Assembly: GCA_038040395.1 (NCBI GenBank)
Contig: JBBPIJ010000003.1
Coordinates: 127,131-191,130, forward strand
Length of the DNA stretch: 64,000 nucleotides
DNA from: Actinomycetota bacterium
GTDB lineage: Bacteria; Actinomycetota; Thermoleophilia; Gaiellales; Gaiellaceae
Reading direction: 5' to 3'
The translations under genes were made by a program, and so were the position numbers. The notes beneath the pieces were generated by a model. It did no database searches and was not told the origin of the DNA. It was given only the letters and a program-made list of their open reading frames with translations. Below are positions 2,830 to 60,771 of the stretch, one piece after another. Within the stretch, counting starts at the first letter, position 1. Each line of letters opens with the position of its first letter.

Positions 2830-5292
2830 ATGCGCGATCTCCCCTCCGGAACCGTCACCTTGCTCTTCACGGACGTCGAAGGGTCGACCTCGCTCCTGAA
2901 CCGTCTCGGGGACGGCTATGCGGACGTTCTCGCGGAACATCGACGGATCCTTCGTTCCGCGTTCGCCGAGCGCGGTGGCGTCGAGGTGGACACGCAGGGA
3001 GACGCGTTCTTCTACGCGTTCACGCGGGCGGGCGATGCCGTCGAGGCTGCGGGCGAAGGGCAGGCGGGCCTGGCCGACGGCCCGCTCCGGGTACGGATCG
3101 GCGTTCACACCGGCGAGCCGCTCCTCGTAGCCGAGGGCTATGTGGGAATCGACGTCCACAGGGCCGCGCGTATCGCCGGCGCCGCCCACGGGGGGCAGGT
3201 CGTGATCTCGCAGACGACGCGCGACCTGGTCGACGGCGACTCCGAGCTCCACGATCTCGGAGTGCATCGCCTGAAGGACCTGACCGCGCCCGAACGCCTC
3301 TATCAACTGGGGGCCGGCGAGTTCCCTCCGCTCCGCACGATCGATGCGACGAATCTCCCCGTCACCGCGAGCCCGCTCCTCGGTAGAGAGGAGGAGCTGG
3401 AGCAGCTCGTGGCTCTCCTTACGGACGGGACGCGCCTCGTGACGGTCACGGGCCCCGGAGGAACCGGTAAGACGCGCCTCGCGCTTCAGGTCGCGGCCGA
3501 GCTGGTCGGCACGGTCTCCGACGGAGTGTTCTGGGTCCCTCTCGCCGGCCTGACCGATCCCGGGCTCGTCTTGCCGGAGATCGCGCGGATGCTGCCTGCC
3601 CGCGACGACCTTGTCGGCTATCTGCGCGGAAAGCGGGTGCTGCTGCTGCTCGACAACTTCGAGCACCTGCTCGAGGCGGCGCCCGACCTCGCATCGCTCC
3701 TCGCCTCGGCGAACGGGCTGCGCGTGATCGTCACGAGCCGAGCCCCGCTGCGGATTTCCGGGGAGCAGGAGTACCCGCTCGAGCCGCTGCCTCCGGAGGA
3801 TGCGATGACGCTGTTCCTGGAACGAGCCCGGGGGGTCGGGAAAGATCTCGCGCCCGATCCGACGATCGAGGCGATCTGTCGCAGCCTGGACGGCCTGCCG
3901 CTCGCCATCGAGCTCGCCGCTGCGCGCACGAAGCTCATGAGCCCCGAGGCGCTCCTGGAGCGCCTCGATCGCGCCCTGTCCGTCCTCACGGGTGGCGCGC
4001 GCGACGCCCCCGAACGCCAACGAACCCTCCGCGCGACCATCGAATGGAGCCACGACCTCCTCGATGAGGAGACGAAACGCCTCTTCGCCCGTCTGTCTGT
4101 CTTCGTCGGGAGCTTTCCTCTCGGAGCCGCCGAAGAGGTCTGCGACGCAGACCTGGACACCCTGGCAGCGCTCGTAGACCTCAGTCTGCTGAAGCCCATA
4201 GCCGACGATCGCTTCCTGATGCTGGAGACGATCCGGGAGCTCGCCGCCGAGAAGCTCGAGGCGTCAGGCGAGGCCGACGAGCTACGCCGCCGCCATGCAA
4301 ATGCATTTCGCTCGCTTGCCGCCGATTGCTATGCGAGGCGCGTCGACGCGGAAGCCGAATGCTCGGAGCTTCTCGAATCCGACCACGACGACCTCCGCGC
4401 CGCGCTCGAGTGGCTCGCTGCCCACGACCCGGAGGCCGAGCTGGAGCTGGCCGGCGCCCTGGGGTGGTTCTGGCTCTCTCACTCGCATCTTCCTGAAGGC
4501 AGACGGCGACTCACCGACGCGCTCGCCCGATCGCGCGGAGCGGATCGCGTCCGGGCTACGGCGCTCACCGCCGCCGGGGGGATCGCGGGCTGGCAAGGCG
4601 ATGCCGACCGCGGCCCCGCCTGGCTCGACGAAGGCATCGCCCTGTGGCGCGAGCTCGGGGAAGTCGCGGAGCTGGCATACGCCCTCGAGACGCTCGGTTG
4701 GGCTCTCTTCGCCGTCGGCGAGAACTTGCCCTCGCTCGCCGCGTTCGAAGAGAGTCTCGAGCTCCGGCGCAGCTCCGGCGACGGGCTCGGCGAGATGCGT
4801 TCTCTCAGCGGTGTCTGCCAGGTGTTGGTCGCCGAGGGCGAGGTCGATCGCGCCGAGCCGCTCTCGAAGGAGCTGCTCGAGCTGGCCCGCAAGCGAGGCG
4901 AGCCGCGGGCGGAGCACTTCGGCCACCATTTCCTGGGCGACTGCGCGCTGATCCGCGGCGACTGTGACGAGGCCGAGGACCTGTACAGGGCGAGCCTGCA
5001 GGCAGCGCTTCCGCTCGGAGATCTCCTGGAGACGAGCTTCGAGGTGCAGGGCGTCGCCATGTCGGCGGCGGGGAAGGGCGATTGGGCGCGCGGCGTCCGC
5101 CTGGCCGCGGCAGGTGCCGCTCTCTGGGACTCGATCGGCTCCACATTGTCGGTGCCTTTCTGGAACGCGCTCCTCGACCGTTACATCGCTCCCGCCCGCG
5201 AGAAGCTGGGCTCTGAGGGGGACGCGGTCTGGGCCGAGGGCTACGCGATGCCATTCGACGATGCCGTGTCGCTGGCCCTCGACTCTGGTTGA
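2830..5292 (+). CDS. Class III nucleotide cyclase domain / STAND (NB-ARC-like) P-loop NTPase / TPR protein, alpha subtype
   Basis: The cyclase homology domain shows MRDLPSGTVTLLFTDVEGSTSLLN, TQGDAFFYAF and DVHRAARI. It also has P-loop GPGGTGKTRLA, Walker B LLLLDNFEH and an ARC-like LDGLPLAIELAA motif. The C-terminus is helical and TPR-like. No upstream repeat module is present. Confidence 0.85.
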   Translation: MRDLPSGTVTLLFTDVEGSTSLLNRLGDGYADVLAEHRRILRSAFAERGGVEVDTQGDAFFYAFTRAGDAVEAAGEGQAGLADGPLRVRIGVHTGEPLLVAEGYVGIDVHRAARIAGAAHGGQVVISQTTRDLVDGDSELHDLGVHRLKDLTAPERLYQLGAGEFPPLRTIDATNLPVTASPLLGREEELEQLVALLTDGTRLVTVTGPGGTGKTRLALQVAAELVGTVSDGVFWVPLAGLTDPGLVLPEIARMLPARDDLVGYLRGKRVLLLLDNFEHLLEAAPDLASLLASANGLRVIVTSRAPLRISGEQEYPLEPLPPEDAMTLFLERARGVGKDLAPDPTIEAICRSLDGLPLAIELAAARTKLMSPEALLERLDRALSVLTGGARDAPERQRTLRATIEWSHDLLDEETKRLFARLSVFVGSFPLGAAEEVCDADLDTLAALVDLSLLKPIADDRFLMLETIRELAAEKLEASGEADELRRRHANAFRSLAADCYARRVDAEAECSELLESDHDDLRAALEWLAAHDPEAELELAGALGWFWLSHSHLPEGRRRLTDALARSRGADRVRATALTAAGGIAGWQGDADRGPAWLDEGIALWRELGEVAELAYALETLGWALFAVGENLPSLAAFEESLELRRSSGDGLGEMRSLSGVCQVLVAEGEVDRAEPLSKELLELARKRGEPRAEHFGHHFLGDCALIRGDCDEAEDLYRASLQAALPLGDLLETSFEVQGVAMSAAGKGDWARGVRLAAAGAALWDSIGSTLSVPFWNALLDRYIAPAREKLGSEGDAVWAEGYAMPFDDAVSLALDSG

Positions 5293-17181: not shown

Positions 17182-17297
17182 ATGCCCCCGGCATGAATCG
17201 AACATGCGCACGCGGTTTAGGAACTAGCGTGCCGAAAGGCTATTTGCAGGGGAAAGTGCGCCTTTCGTGGGGCTGCGCGCCAGTGAATGCGCCAGTG
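17182..17297 (+). repeat. Copy A: tRNA-Arg(CCU) 3'-half-like 41-nt core + conserved ~115-nt module (tRNA sense is on the minus strand)
   Basis: The core TGCCCCCGGCATGAATCGAACATGCGCACGCGGTTTAGGAA lies at 17183-17223. It is followed by CTAGCGTGCCGAAAGGCTATTTGCAGGGGAAAG and TGCGCGCCAGTGAATGCGCCAGT. The ATG of the next gene is 156 nt from the module start. Confidence 0.95.
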
Positions 17298-29881: not shown

Positions 29882-30149
29882 TTGGTGATCACGAACCGCC
29901 GAGCGTGGGCCGCGTCGAACTTAAAGGGGTTCGGCGACGCCTCGAACTCCCCGAGGTTCTTCCCCTCGGCGAGAACGCGTCCCTCGCCAGAGCCCCCGCA
30001 TCCGATGGTGACCGCCGGGACGAAGTCGTTCCGGCAGCCGCCCGGCTGCGGGACGCTGGCGCACCGGTCCGTTAAGACGATTTACGGGCGCGTAGGCGGT
30101 TGAGGAAACACGGGGAACGAGGCAATGAGGCGCAAACCAGTATGGGCAG
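29882..30149 (+). repeat. Segmental duplication partner of 50163-50378 (carries an extra 52 bp)
   Basis: By eye it is identical to 50163-50378, apart from a 52-bp insertion/deletion at 30014-30065. The indel is flanked by the short homology acc|g. Confidence 0.9.
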
Positions 30150-30265
30150 ATGCCCCCGGCATGAATCGAACATGCGCACGCGGTTTAGGAACTAGCGTGC
30201 CGAAACGCCATTTGCAGGGGAAAGTGAGCCTCTCGGCCAGCTGCGCGCCAGTAAATGCGCCAGTG
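30150..30265 (+). repeat. Copy B: 41-nt core + ~115-nt module
   Basis: The core lies at 30151-30191. The whole module and leader are identical to copy F. Confidence 0.95.
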
Positions 30266-30305
30266 CTCTAGGGAAGGTGCGCAGCTCGCCCCATCATTCA
30301 GGCGA

Positions 30306-30445
30306 ATGCGCGATCTCCCTTCCGGAACCGTCACCTTCCTCTTCACCGACATCGAGGGCTCGACGTCGCTCCTGAACAGCCTCGGTGACGAGTACGCGGA
30401 CGTTCTCGCCGAACATCGACGGATCCTCCGTTCCGCGTTCGCTAA
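30306..30445 (+). pseudogene. Truncated cyclase-STAND gene (first ~47 codons only), mosaic of beta and alpha subtypes
   Basis: MRDLPSGTVTFLFTDIEGS is nucleotide-identical to the 50535 gene. It is followed by TSLLNSLGDEYADVLAEHRRILRSAF, which matches the alpha-subtype genes at 2830 and 13512. Homology ends near 30445. Confidence 0.8.
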
Positions 30446-33120: not shown

Positions 33121-33732
33121 CTACACGGCCAGTCGTGCATCGGACTCGAAGCGGCGCGCAAGCACCTTGTCGATGAGGCCGTACTCCATCGCTTCCTCTG
33201 GGGTCATGAAGTAGTCGCGCTCCATGTCCTTGGAGACCTTCTCGAGCGCCTGCCCGGTGTGCTGGGCGACGATCTCCTCCATCTGCCGCTTGAGCGCGAT
33301 CGCCTCCCGAGCCTGGATCTCGATGTCGCTCGCCTGCCCCTCGAAGCCGCCCGAGAGCTGGTGGATGAGGATCTTCGCGTTCGGGAGCGCCATCCGCTTG
33401 CCCTTCGCGCCGGCGGCAAGCAGCAGCGCGCCCAGCGACATTGCGATCCCGACAGAGATCGTCGCGATCGCAGGCTTGACGAACTGCATCGTGTCGTAGA
33501 TGGCGAGGCCGGCGTAGACGGAGCCGCCGGGGCAGTTGATGTAGAGCGAGATGTCCTTGTCGGGGTCCTCGGACTCGAGATGGAGCAGTTCAGCGATCGT
33601 CAGGTTGGCGATCTCGTCGTCGATCGGTGAGCCGAGGAAGATGATCCGCTCGCTGAGGAGGCGCGAGTAAATGTCGAGGGCGCGCTCGCCGCGCGCGGTC
33701 TGCTCGACCACCATCGGAATTAACGGGCTCAT
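33121..33732 (-). CDS. clpP: ATP-dependent Clp protease proteolytic subunit
   Basis: It has [48 protein letters not shown] (Ser), ILIHQ (His) and [13 protein letters not shown] (Asp). Confidence 0.9.
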
Positions 33733-33897: not shown

Positions 33898-35073
33898 GTG
33901 ATGCAGTCCCCGGACCCCGGGTTCGCCGTCGCGGAGCGAGAGATCGAACGCGCACAAGACGCACGGTCTCTCGGCGTTGAGCTTTGGTCGGGAACGGTTC
34001 CTCCCGACGCTGAAGAACTGCGGTGGCTCATCGCGGATGGCCTTGAGAAGGGGTTTCTGACCTACGACGAGATCGCAGCCGCGCTCGAGGACGTCGGCCT
34101 GACGAGGGAGCAGACCGAGGACTTCTACACCTACCTGGTCGAACGCTCGATCGAGCTGGTCGAGGGGGAGCAGCACAAGCATCCGCCGCACGAGCAGCCC
34201 GCGCTCGTCGAGGACAAGGCGCCGCCGAAGTTGGACCTGACCGTCGAGCCCTCGCTCGACTCGCTGCGGCTCTACCTGGGCGAGATCGGAAAAGTGCCGC
34301 TGCTGACGGCCGACCGGGAGGTCTACCTCGCGAAGCGGGTCGAGCGCGGGGACATGGCGGCGAAGACGCAGATGATCGAGGCTAATCTCAGGCTCGTCGT
34401 CTCGATCGCGAAGCGGCACCTCGGCCGCGGCCTCCCGTTCCTCGACCTGATCCAGGAAGGCTCGCTCGGGTTGGTCCGTGCGGTCGAGAAGTTCGACTAT
34501 CGCAAGGGCTTTAAGTTCTCGACCTACGCGACCTGGTGGATCCGGCAGGCGGTGACGCGCGCGCTCACCGACAAAGCGCGGACGATCCGCATCCCGGCGC
34601 ACATGTTCGAGCGGCTGAACAAGGTCATACAGAGTCAACGGCAGCTCGTGCAGCGCCTCGGCCGCGAGCCGCGTCCCGACGAGATCGCCGCCGAGCTCGA
34701 GCTGACGACCGAGGAGGTGCGGGAGATCCTGCGGATGGCGCAGTTTCCAGTCTCGCTTGAGAAGCCGATCGGCGAAAAGGAGGACTCGAAGCTCGGTGAC
34801 CTTGTCGAAGATGAGCTGGCCGAGTCGCCCTTCGACGTGACCTCGGTCTCGCTCCGATGCGATGACATCGAGCACGCGCTCGCGGCGCTATCCGAACGCG
34901 AGCGCCAGGTGATCGAACTTCGCTTCGGCCTACACGATGGCCAGCCGCGAACGCTCAAGGAGGTGGGGCGCACCTTCGGCCTCACCCGCGAGCGGATCCG
35001 TCAGATCGAGAACGACACGCTCAAGACGCTCGCGTCGCTGCCGGAGGCGCAGCGCCTGAAGGACACCCTCTAA
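33898..35073 (+). CDS. RpoD/SigA-family (group 1/2) sigma-70 factor
   Basis: Region 1.2 reads [17 protein letters not shown]. Region 2 reads [51 protein letters not shown]. Region 4.2 reads [20 protein letters not shown]. Confidence 0.9.
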
Positions 35074-38530: not shown

Positions 38531-38646
38531 ATGCCCCCGGCATGAATCGAACATGCGCACGCGGTTTAGGAACCAGCGTGCTGAAATGCTATTTGCAGGC
38601 AAAACGTCGGCCGTGAGCGGGGTGCGCGCCAGTCAACTCGCCAGTT
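38531..38646 (+). repeat. Copy C: 41-nt core + ~115-nt module
   Basis: The core lies at 38532-38572. The module is more diverged (..CCAGCGTGCTGAAATGCTATTTGCAGGCAAAAC..TGCGCGCCAGTCAACTCGCCAGT). It starts 231 nt upstream of the histidine kinase start codon. Confidence 0.95.
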
Positions 38647-41507: not shown

Positions 41508-41622
41508 ATGCCCCCGGCATGAATCGAACATGCGCACGCGGTTTAGGAACTAGCGTGCGAAAGCTCCATTTGCGGGGGAAAGTGCGGCCATTTCGGTCGT
41601 GCGCGCCAGTGATTGCGCCAAT
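41508..41622 (+). repeat. Copy D: 41-nt core + ~115-nt module
   Basis: The core lies at 41509-41549, starting 23 nt after the kinase stop codon and 236 nt upstream of the SDR gene. Confidence 0.95.
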
Positions 41623-45626: not shown

Positions 45627-45668
45627 ATGCCCCCGGCATGAATCGAACATGCGCACGCGGTTTAGGAA
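45627..45668 (+). repeat. Copy E: core only (no extended module)
   Basis: The core lies at 45628-45668. The flank differs, and GCGGTTTAGGAAACCGC forms a perfect 7-bp hairpin here. Confidence 0.95.
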
Positions 45669-46377
45669 ACCGCTTGTCCACTCGTGCAAACCCGCTTAGT
45701 AGAGCGGTTTTCGGCTACCTGGGTTGAGCCTGAACCGCTGTAGCGCCGCTGCGAAGCCGCCGGGGAGGAGGAGGCGGCGACTCTTCGAGGCAATCAATCC
45801 CGGGGCAGCCAATCCGTACGAGGTCTGGACGACGACCGTTCTGATTCGCCCGATCGTCCCGTAACCCAAGAACACGTCGAGGAGCAGCAGCTGTCGTTGA
45901 GTCCGCCGACGCTGCTGCTCCTCCTCCCGTGATCCCTTCGCTCAGCGGGTGCGCCGAGCAGTGGCGCGAGGCTCATCGGAAGTCGTCAATGAAAGAAGAG
46001 GCAGAGAGTGCCGGGTACTTGACGACTCCTCCAACAGGGATCGGAGCAACGGAGTTAGCCCGAGTGGGACTTCGCCGTCTAATCCTCGCGATGCTCGACG
46101 AACGCTTCGGCGGGGACCTCGACTGGATTTGGCAAGCGCGGCGTATGCTCCCAGCCTCACTTAATCCGAACGCGGCGGCTCCACTGGCTACCGGGCCTCT
46201 CGGGCTGCGTGCTGCGGGCGATCCGGGCGAAGATCGGATCTTCGTGGAAGTTGCCGACCAGTCCGCGTGATATCGGGAACAGAGCCGGTAGAACTCGTTT
46301 CAGAATGACCGGTCGGGTGTGCGGCGCTGACACGTTAGGATCGGCGGCTACATTCAGCGTCGAGATCAGGAGGCGAC

Positions 46378-50162: not shown

Positions 50163-50378
50163 TTGGTGATCACGAACCGCCGAGCGTGGGCCGCGTCGAA
50201 CTTAAAGGGGTTCGGCGACGCCTCGAACTCCCCGAGGTTCTTCCCCTCGGCGAGAACGCGTCCCTCGCCAGAGCCCCCGCATCCGATGGTGACCGGTCCG
50301 TTAAGACGATTTACGGGCGCGTAGGCGGTTGAGGAAACACGGGGAACGAGGCAATGAGGCGCAAACCAGTATGGGCAG
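50163..50378 (+). repeat. Segmental duplication partner of 29882-30149
   Basis: See 29882-30149. Identity continues through copy F and into the first 19 codons of the downstream gene, up to 50593. Confidence 0.9.
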
Positions 50379-50494
50379 ATGCCCCCGGCATGAATCGAAC
50401 ATGCGCACGCGGTTTAGGAACTAGCGTGCCGAAACGCCATTTGCAGGGGAAAGTGAGCCTCTCGGCCAGCTGCGCGCCAGTAAATGCGCCAGTG
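50379..50494 (+). repeat. Copy F: 41-nt core + ~115-nt module
   Basis: The core lies at 50380-50420. The ATG of the next gene is 156 nt from the module start. Confidence 0.95.
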
Positions 50495-50534
50495 CTCTAG
50501 GGAAGGTGCGCAGCTCGCCCCATCATTCAGGCGA

Positions 50535-53045
50535 ATGCGCGATCTCCCTTCCGGAACCGTCACCTTCCTCTTCACCGACATCGAGGGCTCGACCAAGCTC
50601 CTGCACGAGCTCGGCGCCGAGGCCTACGCAGACGCGCTCGTCGAGCATCGCCGCGTCCTGCGGGAGGCGTTCGGCGCCCACGGCGGCGTCGAGGTCGACA
50701 ACCAGGGAGATGCGCTCTTCGTCGCCTTTCCGACGGCGCCGGGCGCTCTGGAAGCGGCTGCTGACGCGGTGGCAGGACTCGCTCCGGGACCGATCCGGGT
50801 ACGGATCGGCGTCCACACGGGCACGCCGCACGTGTCCGAGGAAGGCTACGTCGGGCTCGACGTCCACAAGGCCGCGCGCATTGGAGCCGCCGGTCACGGT
50901 GGCCAGGTGCTGGTCTCGCAGACGACACGCGCGCTGGTCGATGCCGATCTCCCACTCGACGACCTAGGCGAGCACAGGCTCAAGGATCTTTCGGCGCCGC
51001 AGCATCTCTGGCAGCTTGGCCCTGGCGAGTTTCCGCCTCTGAAAACGCTCCACCAGACGAACCTGCCGGTACAACCGGGCCCGCTCGTCGGCAGGCAACG
51101 CGAGCTCCGGGAGGCGGGGAAACTCCTCCGTGAGCAACGCCTTGTGACGCTGACAGGCCCCGGGGGCTCCGGGAAGACCCGCCTAGCTCTCCAGGTGGCT
51201 GCTGAGGCGGTTGCGGATTTTCCTGACGGCGTGTGGTTGGTCTCGCTGGCGGAGTTGACCGACCCCCGGCTAGTGCTGGCGTCTGTGAGCCGGACGCTCG
51301 GCGCACGCGGTGATCTCAAGGCTCACCTCGGCTCGAAGCGCCTCCTGCTCTTGATCGACAACCTGGAGCATCTGATCGACTCCGCGCCGCAGTTGGCGGA
51401 GCTTCTTGCGACCGGCGAACAGGTGAAGCTGCTCGTGACGAGCCGGGAGCCGCTTCGGATCGGCGGCGAGCACGAATACGCGGTCTCGCCGCTCGAGATC
51501 GATGAAGCTGTCGACCTCTTCGTCGAGCGCGCCCGCGCAGTGAATGCCGACTTTCCGGTCGCCGATCACACCGAGGTCCTGCGTGAGATCTGCGCCCGCC
51601 TCGACGGACTTCCCCTTGCGATCGAGCTCGCCGCAGCCCGTGCCAAGGTGCTCTCGCCGGAGGCGCTCCGGGATCGGCTCCAGGAGCGCCTACGCTTGCT
51701 CACCCGGGAGCGCCGAGACGTCCCCGAGCGCCAGCGCACGCTGCGCGCAACCATCGAATGGAGCCACGCGTTACTCCACGGCGAGGAGCAGAACCTCTTC
51801 GCCCGCCTGGCGGTCTTCGTCGGCGGCTGTACGCTCGACGCGGCAGAGGACGTCTGCGAGACGTCTCTCGACGCACTGGCCTCGCTCGTCGACAAGAGCC
51901 TCTTGCGCTGGTCGAACGAGCGCTTCGAGATGCTGGAGACGATTCGCGAGTACGCAGTGGAACATCTCGGAGAAAGCGCAGACCGCGACACCTGGCGGAC
52001 CCGCCACGCCGATTACTTCCTCGGCCTCGCGAACCGCGCCGAGCCGAACCTCTACGGTCCAGACCAGTCGCTATGGCTGGAGCGGATCGAAACAGAGCAC
52101 GCAAACCTGAACGCAGCCCGCGAGTTTCTGACCCGCGCAGGCGACGGGGAACGCGCTCTCGAATTGACGGCGGCGATCTGGCGTTTTTTGTCCATCCGAG
52201 GCCGACTCGGGGAGTGCAGGACATGGCTCGAGGAGACTCTCTCTGGGACGGCGGAGCCGACCGAGACGCGCGTCCGCGCCCTCGTCGGAGCATCCATGTC
52301 TGCGCTGCGCCAAGGTGACCACCCGCGGGCGCGGGAGCGGATCACCGAGACGATCGAGCTCGCGCGGCAGTTGGAGTACACGTGGGGCATCGCGGCGGCG
52401 ATCAACCACCTCGGCATACTCTCGTCCGCCGAGGGCGACGAGGAGCGGGCGGAAGCCTTCTATGCAGAGAGTCTGCCGCTCTTCCGCGACGCCGGAGACG
52501 AGCGCATGGTCTGCACCTGCATCCACAACCTCGGAGTTTCGGCGCTTTACCGAGGCGATTACGACCGCGCGACGAAGCTCCTCGAAGAAGGTCTGGCAAT
52601 TGCACGCTCGATTCAGTCAAAGCGCGACGTCGCGGGCTCGCTCGTAGACCTCGGGCTAACCGCCCTGCTGCAAGGCGACCTCGAGGAGGCGCACTCCTTG
52701 CTTCAGGAGAGCCTCGCCCTTTCGGAGGAAGACCTCGAGCTCAACATTCCCTGGTGCCTCGCCGGGCTGGCGGCCGTCGCAGCCGCAGAGTCTCAGGCCG
52801 AGAGAGGAGCCTTCTTGCTCGGCGCGGCTGACCGCCTGGCCGAGACGCTAGGTGTATCGCTTGTCGAGGCATCGTTCGACCGCAAACTGCGCGAGCAGAC
52901 CATTGCCGGTCTTCGTCAGGACCTCGACGAGCAAGCGCTTACCGCCTGCCTCGCCGAGGGCCGATCGAAGACCCTCGAGGAGGTGCTCGCCTTCGCGCTT
53001 CGGGGCCTCGGGGCTCGGCCGTCCGAAGAGATGCCCCCGGCATGA
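50535..53045 (+). CDS. Cyclase / STAND NTPase / TPR protein, beta subtype
   Basis: It has MRDLPSGTVTFLFTDIEGSTKLLHELG, NQGDALFVAFPTAPGALEAA, DVHKAARI, GPGGSGKTRLA, LLLIDNLEH and LDGLPLAIELAA, with TPR-like repeats. The last four codons and the stop (MPPA*) lie inside repeat copy G. Confidence 0.85.
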   Translation: MRDLPSGTVTFLFTDIEGSTKLLHELGAEAYADALVEHRRVLREAFGAHGGVEVDNQGDALFVAFPTAPGALEAAADAVAGLAPGPIRVRIGVHTGTPHVSEEGYVGLDVHKAARIGAAGHGGQVLVSQTTRALVDADLPLDDLGEHRLKDLSAPQHLWQLGPGEFPPLKTLHQTNLPVQPGPLVGRQRELREAGKLLREQRLVTLTGPGGSGKTRLALQVAAEAVADFPDGVWLVSLAELTDPRLVLASVSRTLGARGDLKAHLGSKRLLLLIDNLEHLIDSAPQLAELLATGEQVKLLVTSREPLRIGGEHEYAVSPLEIDEAVDLFVERARAVNADFPVADHTEVLREICARLDGLPLAIELAAARAKVLSPEALRDRLQERLRLLTRERRDVPERQRTLRATIEWSHALLHGEEQNLFARLAVFVGGCTLDAAEDVCETSLDALASLVDKSLLRWSNERFEMLETIREYAVEHLGESADRDTWRTRHADYFLGLANRAEPNLYGPDQSLWLERIETEHANLNAAREFLTRAGDGERALELTAAIWRFLSIRGRLGECRTWLEETLSGTAEPTETRVRALVGASMSALRQGDHPRARERITETIELARQLEYTWGIAAAINHLGILSSAEGDEERAEAFYAESLPLFRDAGDERMVCTCIHNLGVSALYRGDYDRATKLLEEGLAIARSIQSKRDVAGSLVDLGLTALLQGDLEEAHSLLQESLALSEEDLELNIPWCLAGLAAVAAAESQAERGAFLLGAADRLAETLGVSLVEASFDRKLREQTIAGLRQDLDEQALTACLAEGRSKTLEEVLAFALRGLGARPSEEMPPA

Positions 53046-53072
53046 ATCGAACATGCGCACGCGGTTTAGGAA
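53031..53072 (+). repeat. Copy G: core only, overlapping the 3' end of the upstream CDS
   Basis: The core lies at 53032-53072. ATG CCC CCG GCA TGA is read in frame as the C-terminus of the 50535 gene. Confidence 0.95.
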
Positions 53073-53141
53073 GGTTCCCGTCATTGCTGCGAGAATCTCC
53101 GATCTCGAACTGGAATCTCTCCGGACAGACGAGGTGATCTG

Positions 53142-53868: not shown

Positions 53869-53983
53869 GTGCCCCCGGCATGAATCGAACATGCGCACGC
53901 GGTTTAGGAACTAACGTGCGAAAACCTCATTTGCAGGCAAAATCCAGCTTCGAACCGGGGTGCGCGCCAGTGAATGCGCCAGC
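53869..53983 (+). repeat. Copy H: 41-nt core + ~115-nt module
   Basis: The core lies at 53870-53910, and the first base is G instead of A. The ATG of the next gene is 156 nt from the module start. Confidence 0.95.
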
Positions 53984-56595: not shown

Positions 56596-56711
56596 ATGCC
56601 CCCGGCATGAATCGAACATGCGCACGCGGTTTAGGAACTAGCGTGCCAAAACGCTATTTGCAGGGAAAACGCTGCTTCGGAACGCCGTGCGCGCCAATGA
56701 ATGCGCCAGTG
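56596..56711 (+). repeat. Copy I: 41-nt core + ~115-nt module
   Basis: The core lies at 56597-56637, starting 287 nt upstream of the GTG start of the next gene. Confidence 0.95.
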
Positions 56712-60466: not shown

Positions 60467-60657
60467 CCGGACTGGCTAGGTGCCGAGGACGACGACTGTC
60501 TGCGCGCAGTGGAGCTGGCGCAGAGTTGCGTGGATTCGAGCGATGGAGAGGCCCCCGCAGCCTCGGCGATCCGCGATAGAGGTAGGTCCGGGATGGTCGG
60601 AACGCCAAACCAGCCGATTTGCGGGTGTTCCCGCCGAACTCGGCTCGTCTAGTGGGA

Positions 60658-60771
60658 GTGCCCCCGGCATGAATCGAACATGCGCACGCGGTTTAGGAAC
60701 TAGCGTGCTAAAACGCCATCTGCAGGTAAAAGCCGTCTCTGACCAGCGTGCGCGCCAGTGAATGCGCCAGT
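60658..60771 (+). repeat. Copy J: 41-nt core + ~115-nt module
   Basis: The core lies at 60659-60699, and the first base is G. It starts 232 nt upstream of the GTG start of the next gene. Confidence 0.95.

What the first reader, a model, noticed from the sequence alone, without database searches (positions are those of the whole stretch)
50379..50534. Conserved ~115-nt module (core + two sequence blocks at fixed spacing) placed upstream of eight functionally different + strand genes
Eight of the ten cores (A, B, C, D, F, H, I, J) continue into a shared module.
- Block 2 at about +43..+75 reads CTAGCGTGCCGAAACGCCATTTGCAGGGGAAAG.
- A non-conserved ~18-nt spacer of constant length follows.
- Block 3 at +93..+115 reads TGCGCGCCAGTGAATGCGCCAGT. 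It contains the direct repeat CGCCAGT-N5-CGCCAGT, with a 12-bp period.

Downstream genes:
- Four beta-subtype cyclase-STAND loci have their ATG exactly 156 nt from the module start and share a further motif, CCCATCATTC(A/G)..ATG.
- The other four are two zinc-ribbon cyclase-STAND genes, the PAS/GAF histidine kinase and phaB.

On the + strand the module can form the hairpins GCATG-AATCGAA-CATGC, CACGC-N13-GCGTG and GCGT-GCCGAA-ACGC.

Inference: this could be a shared promoter/operator, with the direct repeat fitting a response-regulator-type or other dimeric DNA binder. It could equally be a structured 5' UTR that couples these genes into one regulon. Alternatively, it is simply the conserved arm of a recombination site.
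Basis: partly seen in the sequence, partly recalled or inferred. Interest (0 to 1): 0.62.

Follow-up and report, generated by a model that had tools for sequence, protein, structure and literature searches.

The report
tRNA-derived attachment-site arm, repeated
The repeated 115-base module is the scar of mobile DNA inserting again and again into one tRNA-Arg gene (a copy of the gene's 3' part plus the element's conserved recombination arm), not a shared gene switch.

Summary
The window holds ten 42-nt cores, eight of which continue into blocks 2 and 3, and four loci have their ATG at +156.

The core, read on the minus strand, is the 3' part of tRNA-Arg(CCT), from the anticodon loop to the discriminator base. 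The intact gene closes the array 4 kb beyond the window. This Gaiellaceae genome holds 17 copies. Congeners hold 0-4, always downstream of the same tRNA.

Blocks 2 and 3 are the element-side arm of an anticodon-loop-type att site:
- An inverted repeat, GCACGC-N3-TTAGGAA-N3-GCGTGC, brackets the anticodon loop.
- A TTTGCAGG box sits at a fixed offset.
- A phased GCGCCAGT pair follows.

The same box-plus-pair layout lies next to tRNA-targeting tyrosine integrase genes across the family. An intact 15.5-kb island in another genus carries the core, the pair on both arms and an integrase.

Neither the window nor 44 other module-bearing loci encode an integrase, so the units look like integrase-less cassettes accreted in tandem.

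The regulatory readings fail:
- Only the tRNA T-stem covaries.
- There is no Rfam or sigma-70 match.
- Elsewhere, Pfam-verified genes converge on the module.

This is an att arm of a known kind. The size of the array is unusual.

The parts
50380..50421 (-). Core F, the displaced 3' part of tRNA-Arg(CCT) read on the minus strand. Discriminator A at 50380; acceptor 3' strand 50381-50387; T-arm 50388-50404; variable region 50405-50408; anticodon-stem 3' strand 50409-50413; anticodon loop TTCCTAA 50414-50420. Position 50421 is the first non-tRNA base.
   Evidence: The reverse complement equals positions 32-73 of the tRNA-Arg(CCT) that ARAGORN finds at G000 C3 c[195152,195223].
50405..50429 (.). 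Inverted repeat GCACGC-GGT-TTAGGAA-CTA-GCGTGC centred on the anticodon loop. Inferred core-type recombinase sites flanking a 7-bp crossover region.
   Evidence: Sequence. Paired in 95% of 39 copies but never compensated, so it is a DNA-level repeat and not an RNA helix.
50439..50447 (+). ATTTGCAGG box, the conserved heart of block 2.
   Evidence: At a fixed offset in 34 of 38 modules. The same box lies 17-18 nt from the tRNA 3' end in the P' arms beside 16 of 23 integrase genes of a related family.
50471..50493 (+). Block 3: two phased GCGCCAGT repeats (50474-50481 and 50486-50493). Inferred arm-type binding sites.
   Evidence: The same pair lies on P' arms of Arg(CCT) cores, beside several other tRNA genes in 51 of 89 genera, and on both arms and upstream of the integrase gene in the intact island L139.
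50494..50534 (+). 41-nt leader of the cyclase-STAND gene (CCCATCATTC motif). It belongs to the gene, not to the att arm.
   Evidence: Kept with the gene in G028 (L033), where the module is truncated to half of block 3. Identical length in four window loci.
50535..53045 (+). Cargo gene: class III cyclase + NB-ARC/STAND + TPR. Its last codons and stop lie inside the next core, G.
   Evidence: Pfam; ORF end 53045 against core start 53032.
17183..17296 (+). Module A (core + arm). This is the outermost copy, 5 nt after the stop of the conserved PD40/PASTA flank gene.
30151..30264 (+). Module B, a near-identical duplicate of F including its left flank.
38532..38645 (+). Module C, before the PAS/GAF histidine kinase gene.
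41509..41622 (+). Module D, before phaB-phaJ-phaC.
45628..45669 (+). Core E without the module (GGAAA, then a different arm, ACCGCTTGTCC).
53032..53073 (+). Core G without the module (GGAAG, different arm).
53870..53983 (+). Module H.
56597..56710 (+). Module I. Its left flank keeps the core-proximal half of a P' arm.
60659..60771 (+). Module J. Its left flank is a second P' arm type (ATTTGCGGG box).

Best explanation
**What the module is.** It is the tRNA-distal junction left by site-specific integration into the tRNA-Arg(CCT) gene. Its first 41-42 nt are a copy of the gene's 3' part, anticodon loop to discriminator, on the minus strand. This is the 'displaced fragment' that every integration at an anticodon-loop-type att site leaves behind. 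The next ~75 nt are the element's own arm, the one that in attP lies on the anticodon-stem side of the crossover.

**The arm has three parts:**
- One half of an inverted repeat that brackets the 7-bp anticodon loop. I infer these are core-type recombinase sites around the crossover.
- A TTTGCAGG box at a fixed 19-nt offset. I infer an accessory-factor or recombinase site.
- About 30 nt further out, two GCGCCAGT repeats one helical turn apart. I infer arm-type sites for the N-terminal domain of a tyrosine integrase, or sites for its excision factor.

**How the array arose.** Repeated integrations at the regenerated tRNA, plus deletions and duplications, have stacked at least 11 units over 51 kb on this contig and at least 4 more on contig C12. 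Almost all units have lost, or never had, an integrase. They are compact cargo units (often one gene plus one att site) of the cis-mobilizable-element kind.

**Why the module sits in front of eight different genes here.** Each cargo gene abuts the same arm of its element. The genes do not share regulation.

**Shown versus inferred.** Shown: the tRNA origin, the array geometry, the presence/absence differences among relatives, the shared arm layout and its link to integrase genes. Inferred: which protein binds which block, and whether any unit can still move.
For: 1. The reverse complement of the core equals tRNA-Arg(CCT) positions 32-73. The intact gene is the last copy of the array.
2. All copies are direct repeats lying downstream of the tRNA 3' end. 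In the same genus there are 0-4 copies per genome, always at this tRNA, with syntenic outer flanks: the PD40/PASTA gene on one side and ABC-transporter genes on the other.
3. Variant cores carry compensatory T-stem changes (GCAAG/CTTGC, GGCCG/CGGCC). One variant, GCCGG/CCAGC, pairs only on the minus strand through G-U. The cores were therefore copied from functional tRNAs of other hosts.
4. Identity to the tRNA stops exactly at the anticodon loop, and an uncompensated inverted repeat brackets the loop.
5. The same design, a pair of phased repeats plus a TTTGCAGG box, forms the P' arm between integrase genes and tRNA-Lys in 16 of 23 loci.
6. GCGCCAGT pairs also lie on the other (P') side of Arg(CCT) cores. 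They lie beside Ser, SeC and Arg tRNA genes in 101 of 301 genomes. Six of 30 such loci have a tyrosine integrase within 1.5 kb.
7. L139 is an intact 15.5-kb island bounded by Arg(CCT) cores. It has the pair on both arms and upstream of a PF00589 integrase gene.
8. The spacing from core to block 3 falls in two classes, about 92 and about 103 nt, one helical turn apart.
9. tRNA-Asp and tRNA-Lys in the same genome have analogous fragment repeats, each with its own arm.
Against: - No integrase lies in the window, in the rest of the G000 array, or in 44 other module-bearing loci.
- The only G000 integrase next to a core (on C12) belongs to tRNA-Lys.
- The G000 homologue of the L139 integrase (C11, 44-45% identical) has no GCGCCAGT pair and no tRNA beside it.
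- Most units lack a matching P' arm, so independent excision is doubtful.
- No protein binding and no excision product has been observed.
- In the four beta-type cyclase cassettes only 41 nt separate block 3 from the ATG. Transcription must therefore start in or upstream of the module, and a co-opted promoter role is possible.
- The order of units in this MAG depends on how the assembler resolved 42-160-nt repeats. I could not check this from contigs.
Confidence: 0.85

Rival explanations
1. Shared promoter/operator. The module carries a promoter, and the GCGCCAGT pair is an operator for a dimeric or tandem-binding regulator that ties the eight genes into one regulon.
For: All eight window modules lie upstream of co-oriented genes. 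In four of them only 41 nt separate block 3 from the ATG, so their transcripts must start in or before the module. A GCGCCAGT pair also lies just upstream of the integrase gene in L139, which would fit autoregulation.
Against: There is no sigma-70-like match in 50200-50700. Outside this window at least five Pfam-verified genes (S9 peptidase, multicopper oxidase, DUF6351, two aminotransferases) converge on block 3 with their 3' ends. The distance from block 3 to the start codon varies from 41 to 173 nt, while the distance to the tRNA core is fixed. The same pair lies beside tRNA 3' ends where no downstream gene follows. The cyclase gene keeps its leader without the module in G028, and has no module at all at window 2830.
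Confidence: 0.08
2. Structured 5' UTR or cis-regulatory RNA transcribed on the + strand.
For: Three hairpins can be drawn. One short metatranscriptome contig overlaps 50405-50500.
Against: No Rfam family matches. The only helix with compensatory changes is the tRNA T-stem, and one variant of it pairs only on the minus strand. CACGC/GCGTG never compensates, and GCGT/ACGC is no better than shuffles, with 296 of 500 shuffles reaching the observed percentage of paired cells. The orientation relative to neighbouring genes is mixed.
Confidence: 0.02
3. Active integron-like platform. The tRNA-Arg(CCT) locus is a capture site where integrase-less units of one gene plus one att site are excised as circles and re-inserted by a tyrosine integrase encoded elsewhere (for example the C11 homologue), which keeps the arms under selection.
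For: The junctions are very tight: the previous gene's stop lies from 239 nt before the next core to 14 nt inside it. The cores are 100% identical in 16 of the genome's 17 copies, while the spacers diverge. The blocks are conserved against a free spacer. An orthologous cyclase gene is a core-bounded unit in G007 and G012, lies just outside the outermost core in G028, and is a plain gene in G000. A related integrase is present in G000.
Against: Congeners with arrays (G010, G007) have no such integrase in genomes that are 88-92% complete. The P' sides are heterogeneous or missing. No circular junction or alternative joint was seen, though contigs cannot show one. The conservation pattern can equally reflect selection in the donor elements before each insertion.
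Confidence: 0.15

Closest known systems
Tandem ssrA genomic islands of Dehalococcoides (McMurdie et al. 2011, PMC3146451)
   Same: Many direct repeats of the 3' end of one small-RNA gene lie within 100 kb downstream of it. An extra conserved motif sits next to each repeat. The number of islands varies between strains. Some islands lack an integration module and were suggested to be cis-mobilizable. The cargo is a paralogous gene family.
   Different: There the target is the tmRNA gene, the repeat is 20 bp at the T-loop, and the recombinase is a CcrB-like serine recombinase present in 16 islands. Here the target is tRNA-Arg(CCT), the repeat is 41-42 bp from the anticodon loop, the associated recombinases are tyrosine integrases, and almost no unit keeps one.
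Cis-mobilizable elements (CIMEs) and site-specific accretion, ICESt1/ICESt3 type (review PMC5704250)
   Same: The units are flanked by att sites but lack integration and transfer genes, and they are stacked by integration of newcomers into a resident att site.
   Different: Described cases have one or two CIMEs beside an ICE or IME. Here at least 11 units stand at one tRNA with no resident integrase. Many carry a single gene. Mobilization is untested.
Anticodon-loop class tDNA att sites of tyrosine integrases (Islander class A; Williams 2002; PMC4383910)
   Same: The displaced 3' tDNA fragment marks the island end, identity runs from the anticodon loop to the 3' end, and the island restores the gene.
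   Different: Islander counted only 4 tandem arrays of three or more islands in 2168 genomes, each island with its own integrase. This array would fail Islander's integrase filter.
Arm-type sites of heterobivalent integrases (lambda P/P' arms, mycobacteriophage L5, pSAM2; from my own knowledge)
   Same: Short direct repeats about one helical turn apart, tens of bases from the core, occur on both arms and near the int gene.
   Different: Binding has not been shown here. The motif (GCGCCAGT) and the TTTGCAGG box are, as far as I know, undescribed.
Integron cassette arrays
   Same: Compact, mostly co-oriented units of one gene plus one site form an array at a fixed chromosomal site.
   Different: There is no IntI-type integrase beside the array. 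The site is tRNA-derived with a one-sided arm, not an attC hairpin, and it lies 5' of the gene as the cassettes read here.

Membership tests
Displaced tDNA fragment / att junction of a tRNA-integrating element | The repeat is identical to the 3' part of a resident tRNA gene, in the same orientation, downstream of that gene. | tested here: met
   The core equals tRNA-Arg(CCT) positions 32-73. The gene at C3 c[195152,195223] closes the array.
Displaced tDNA fragment / att junction of a tRNA-integrating element | Presence/absence differences with conserved outer flanks in relatives. | tested here: met
   0-4 copies in 30 congeners. The PD40/PASTA and ABC flanks are syntenic.
Displaced tDNA fragment / att junction of a tRNA-integrating element | An integrase gene lies inside the unit. 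| tested here: not met
   None in the window, the G000 array or 44 module-bearing loci. The feature is met only in the related intact island L139.
Displaced tDNA fragment / att junction of a tRNA-integrating element | Repeated arm sites lie on both sides of the core and are bound by the integrase or excision factor. | tested here: inconclusive
   The sequence pattern is met. Binding cannot be tested with these tools.
Cis-mobilizable element (CIME) array | The unit is flanked by att sites and has no integration or transfer genes. | tested here: met
Cis-mobilizable element (CIME) array | The unit is excised or transferred together with a neighbouring functional element. | not testable with these tools
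   This needs raw reads or an experiment. Contigs break at the repeats.
Integron | An IntI-type integrase and attI lie beside the array. | tested here: not met
   The genes beside the tRNA are ABC-transporter, PadR-like and PhzF-like by eye. PF00589 hits lie elsewhere in the genome.
Integron | An attC site: an imperfect palindrome that folds as a single strand. | tested here: not met
   The only covarying stem is the tRNA T-stem. The other hairpins show no covariation.
Cis-regulatory RNA (5' UTR element) | A conserved structure with covariation on the mRNA strand, and a constant position upstream of a co-oriented gene. | tested here: not met
Sigma-70 promoter plus operator | -35/-10 hexamers at a fixed distance from the regulated start. 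| tested here: inconclusive
   No consensus match, and the distance to start codons varies from 41 to 173 nt. Actinobacterial promoters can escape this scan, and no TSS data exist.

The most novel reading that the evidence does not exclude
The tRNA-Arg(CCT) locus of Gaiellaceae works as an integron-like capture platform built from a tRNA-derived att site. Integrase-less units of one gene plus one att site, many encoding NLR-like cyclase-STAND sensors, would be excised, shuffled and re-inserted by a tyrosine integrase supplied in trans. The conserved GCGCCAGT/TTTGCAGG arm would be the cassette's recombination signal, and possibly its promoter as well.
Probability: 0.15. Interest if true: 0.75.

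Novelty: new member of a known kind. Interest (0 to 1): 0.4.

Why it matters
- The result explains a striking repeat family in an uncultured soil and permafrost actinobacterium without invoking a new regulon. This should stop the eight genes from being annotated as co-regulated.
- It defines a recognisable att architecture for Gaiellaceae elements: crossover at the anticodon loop, a TTTGCAGG box, and a phased GCGCCAGT pair. Related elements use a CGTACTCC pair instead, and possibly CGAACCG or GCCGTT pairs. The architecture can be used to delimit islands in these MAG-only lineages.
- One tRNA gene carries at least 11 displaced fragments in a 2.7-Mb genome. The Islander survey found only four arrays of three or more islands in 2168 genomes.
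- The array is a hotspot for gain of cyclase-STAND signalling genes, PHA synthesis genes and glyoxylate-shunt genes.
- If the units still move, this would be a natural cassette system distinct from integrons.

Tried and rejected
- **Rfam:** no match in the whole window at gathering thresholds.
- **Promoter and terminator scan of 50200-50700:** nothing.
- **Viral contigs:** no match to the module junction.
- **C12 integrase as the Arg(CCT) integrase:** rejected. It lies 100 nt from a core, but its homologues face tRNA-Lys, and its own CGTACTC pair and ATTTGCAGG box face the adjacent tRNA-Lys.
- **Integrase remnants beside Arg P' arms:** none found by tblastn at E=1.
- **A third degenerate GCGCCAGT repeat in the 'spacer':** not supported by an offset scan.
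- **Neighbour-gene orientation from my own ORF callers:** unreliable in this 68% GC DNA. I replaced it with Pfam-verified cases.
- **Metatranscriptome and metagenome contigs:** they break inside the repeats and give neither TSSs nor joints.
- **PADLOC on the cargo:** only weak cyclase and TPR similarities, so no defence system can be named.
- **Pfam and PHROGs tallies of 79 ORFs around metagenome copies:** no recombinase or phage genes among the 25 most frequent families that each tally listed.

Full report
**1. Observation**

The 42-nt core occurs ten times in the window, all on the + strand. Eight copies are exact and two differ only at the last base. Shuffles give none. Eight copies continue into block 3 with at most 3 mismatches.

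The ATG lies at +156 in four loci, with a shared 41-nt leader. The downstream genes are cyclase-STAND proteins, a PAS/GAF histidine kinase and a phaB-like reductase followed by phaJ and phaC.

**2. What the core is**

Read on the minus strand, the core runs as follows: anticodon loop TTCCTAA, stem ACCGC, variable GTGC, T-arm GCATG-TTCGATT-CATGC, acceptor strand CGGGGGC, then A. ARAGORN finds no tRNA in the window. In the whole genome it finds one tRNA-Arg(CCT), at C3 c[195152,195223]. That is the last of 12 cores lined up on contig C3 between 144313 and 195193. The window is C3:127131-191130.

Five more copies lie on contig C12. One of these, at C12:15866, has the T-stem changed from GCATG/CATGC to GCCGG/CCAGC. 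That variant pairs only on the minus strand, through a G-U pair.

Identity to the tRNA ends exactly at the 5' edge of the anticodon loop. In module copies the next base is C; in the gene it is A. The cores are therefore displaced 3' fragments of a tRNA gene, the classical footprint of integration at an anticodon-loop att site (Islander principle and class A, PMC4383910).

**3. The locus in relatives**

Record titles of related contigs place the genome in the Gaiellaceae. Among 30 genomes of the same genus there are 0-4 cores per genome. Wherever I fetched the locus, the copies lie in direct orientation just downstream of the tRNA-Arg(CCT) 3' end, and some carry blocks 2 and 3.

The flank beyond the tRNA (ABC-transporter genes) is syntenic in five relatives. 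The PD40/PASTA gene, which ends 5 nt before the first G000 core, is the outer flank in G010 too, where a truncated core follows it. The 51 kb in between is therefore an insertion zone.

A cyclase gene that is 83-85% identical occupies three different contexts:
- In G007 and G012 it is a core-bounded unit.
- In G028 it lies just outside the outermost core, with only half of block 3 left.
- In G000 (window 2830-5292) it is a plain gene with no module.

**4. What blocks 2 and 3 are**

I collected 47 distinct copies from G000, relatives and 30 metagenome contigs. A 39-copy alignment shows three conserved features:
- YAGCGTGC, which with GCACGC forms an inverted repeat around the 7-nt anticodon loop.
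- ATTTGCAGG at a fixed offset, in 34 of 38 copies.
- GCGCCAGT-N4-GCGCCAGT.

Pair counting gives compensatory changes only in the T-stem, in 3 of its 5 pairs. CACGC/GCGTG shows none, and GCGT/ACGC performs at chance level. The distance from core to block 3 falls into two classes about 11 nt apart, as expected for protein-DNA phasing.

**5. Link to recombinases**

Neither the window nor the rest of the array encodes an integrase. The same holds for 44 other module-bearing loci, tested by phmmer, tblastn and Pfam and PHROGs tallies.

The one integrase next to a core (on C12) belongs to a family whose members normally sit as: int stop, CGTACTCC x2, about 45 nt, TTTGCAGG, 10 nt, tRNA-Lys 3' end. 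Its own such arm faces the adjacent tRNA-Lys, so it is a Lys integrase. That canonical arm nevertheless has the same design as the module.

The search for the cognate recombinase gave these results:
- Some Arg(CCT) cores carry on their other side a P' arm with GCGCCAGT-N3-GCGCCAGT, AGCGG repeats and a TTTGCAG box at -17. One of these is the intact tRNA of G020.
- The GCGCCAGT pair occurs in 101 of 301 Gaiellaceae genomes, in 51 of 89 genera. It lies about 100-125 nt from the 3' ends of Ser, SeC and Arg tRNA genes.
- Six of 30 sampled loci hold a tyrosine integrase within 1.5 kb.
- In G137 (L139) an intact 15.5-kb island is bounded by two Arg(CCT) cores. The pair lies on its distal arm, on its P' arm and just upstream of a PF00589 integrase gene. 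DNA methylases and an XRE regulator lie inside the island.
- G000 has a 44-45% identical integrase on C11, but nothing ties it physically to the array.

**6. Against the regulatory readings**

- No Rfam family matches, and there is no sigma-70-like site.
- Outside this window, at least five Pfam-verified genes end 30-100 nt from block 3, pointing at it.
- The distance from block 3 to start codons ranges from 41 to 173 nt, whereas the distance to the core is fixed.
- Metatranscriptome contigs were too fragmentary to place a TSS.

A co-opted promoter in the four cyclase cassettes remains possible, because only 41 nt separate block 3 from their ATG.

**7. Model and comparison**

The module is a displaced tRNA fragment plus the conserved P arm of an anticodon-loop att site. 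The array is a tandem accretion of mostly integrase-less units.

The closest descriptions are the tandem ssrA islands of Dehalococcoides, which also show a conserved motif beside each repeat and islands without integration modules (PMC3146451), and CIME accretion (PMC5704250). Islander found only four arrays of three or more islands in 2168 genomes, so the array is unusually long.

tRNA-Asp and tRNA-Lys in the same genome show the same phenomenon, each with its own arm.

**8. Caveats**

- Protein binding and present-day mobility are inferred, not shown.
- The order of units in this MAG rests on how the assembler resolved the repeats.
- The metagenome copies were found with a pattern that fixes the junction, so conservation there is partly by ascertainment. 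Copies in relatives and in G000 were found through the core alone.

Noticed in passing
G000 C24:16716-21760; also C3:191467 (about 340 nt beyond the window end), C12:15065 and C12:11480: tRNA-Asp(GTC) has its own array of displaced fragments (anticodon loop to 3' end, 40/40 identical to the resident gene). Each is followed by a different conserved arm (TTGGGCG..TTGCCGTT-N4-CGCCGTTAG). Asp fragments are also embedded in the P' arms of some Arg(CCT) cores.
   Followed up: partly
G000 C12:19462-20797 and C24:6244-6284: There is a tRNA-Lys(TTT) island. An intact ~385-aa tyrosine integrase lies just downstream of tRNA-Lys. The 41-nt Lys 3' fragment recurs on contig C24 with GTTGCAAC-type and GAGTAC repeats. 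If the contigs join as the orientation suggests, the C12 Arg(CCT) units lie inside the Lys island.
   Followed up: partly
window 53032-53045: The cyclase-STAND gene 50535-53045 takes its last codons and its stop from core G, so the integration junction has replaced the native 3' end of the gene.
   Followed up: partly
window 30068-30388 versus 50297-50617: A near-identical segmental duplication covers the left flank, the module and the first codons of the cyclase gene. Copy B heads only a 160-aa ORF, a truncated cyclase.
   Followed up: partly
window 2830-5292: This cyclase-STAND gene is 83-85% identical to a core-bounded unit in three congeners, but here it has no core or module on either side. 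Either the unit became fixed and lost its sites, or the gene was captured into the array elsewhere.
   Followed up: partly
window 60575-60658 (left flank of core J); L033, L036, L090, L094, L106: A second P' arm type recurs next to Arg(CCT) cores: CGAACCG-N3-CGAACCG, then ATTTGCGGG about 43 nt from the core, then TAGTGGGAG. This suggests that elements with a different arm specificity use the same tRNA.
   Followed up: no
window 33121-33732 and three metagenome loci: A solitary clpP recurs near modules: 3 of 79 ORFs around metagenome copies, plus the one in this window. An RpoD-like sigma factor gene also lies inside the array (33898-35073).
   Followed up: no
G000 C2:210323-211646 and all 12 relatives checked: Two tyrosine recombinase genes with strong Xer-like scores lie side by side in every genome examined. 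This adjacent arrangement is unusual to my knowledge.
   Followed up: no
G000 C12:7922-10752: Isocitrate lyase and malate synthase genes (identified by eye from their sequences, not searched) form one module-headed unit. Together with the phaBJC unit in the window, this shows that core metabolic operons travel in these units.
   Followed up: no
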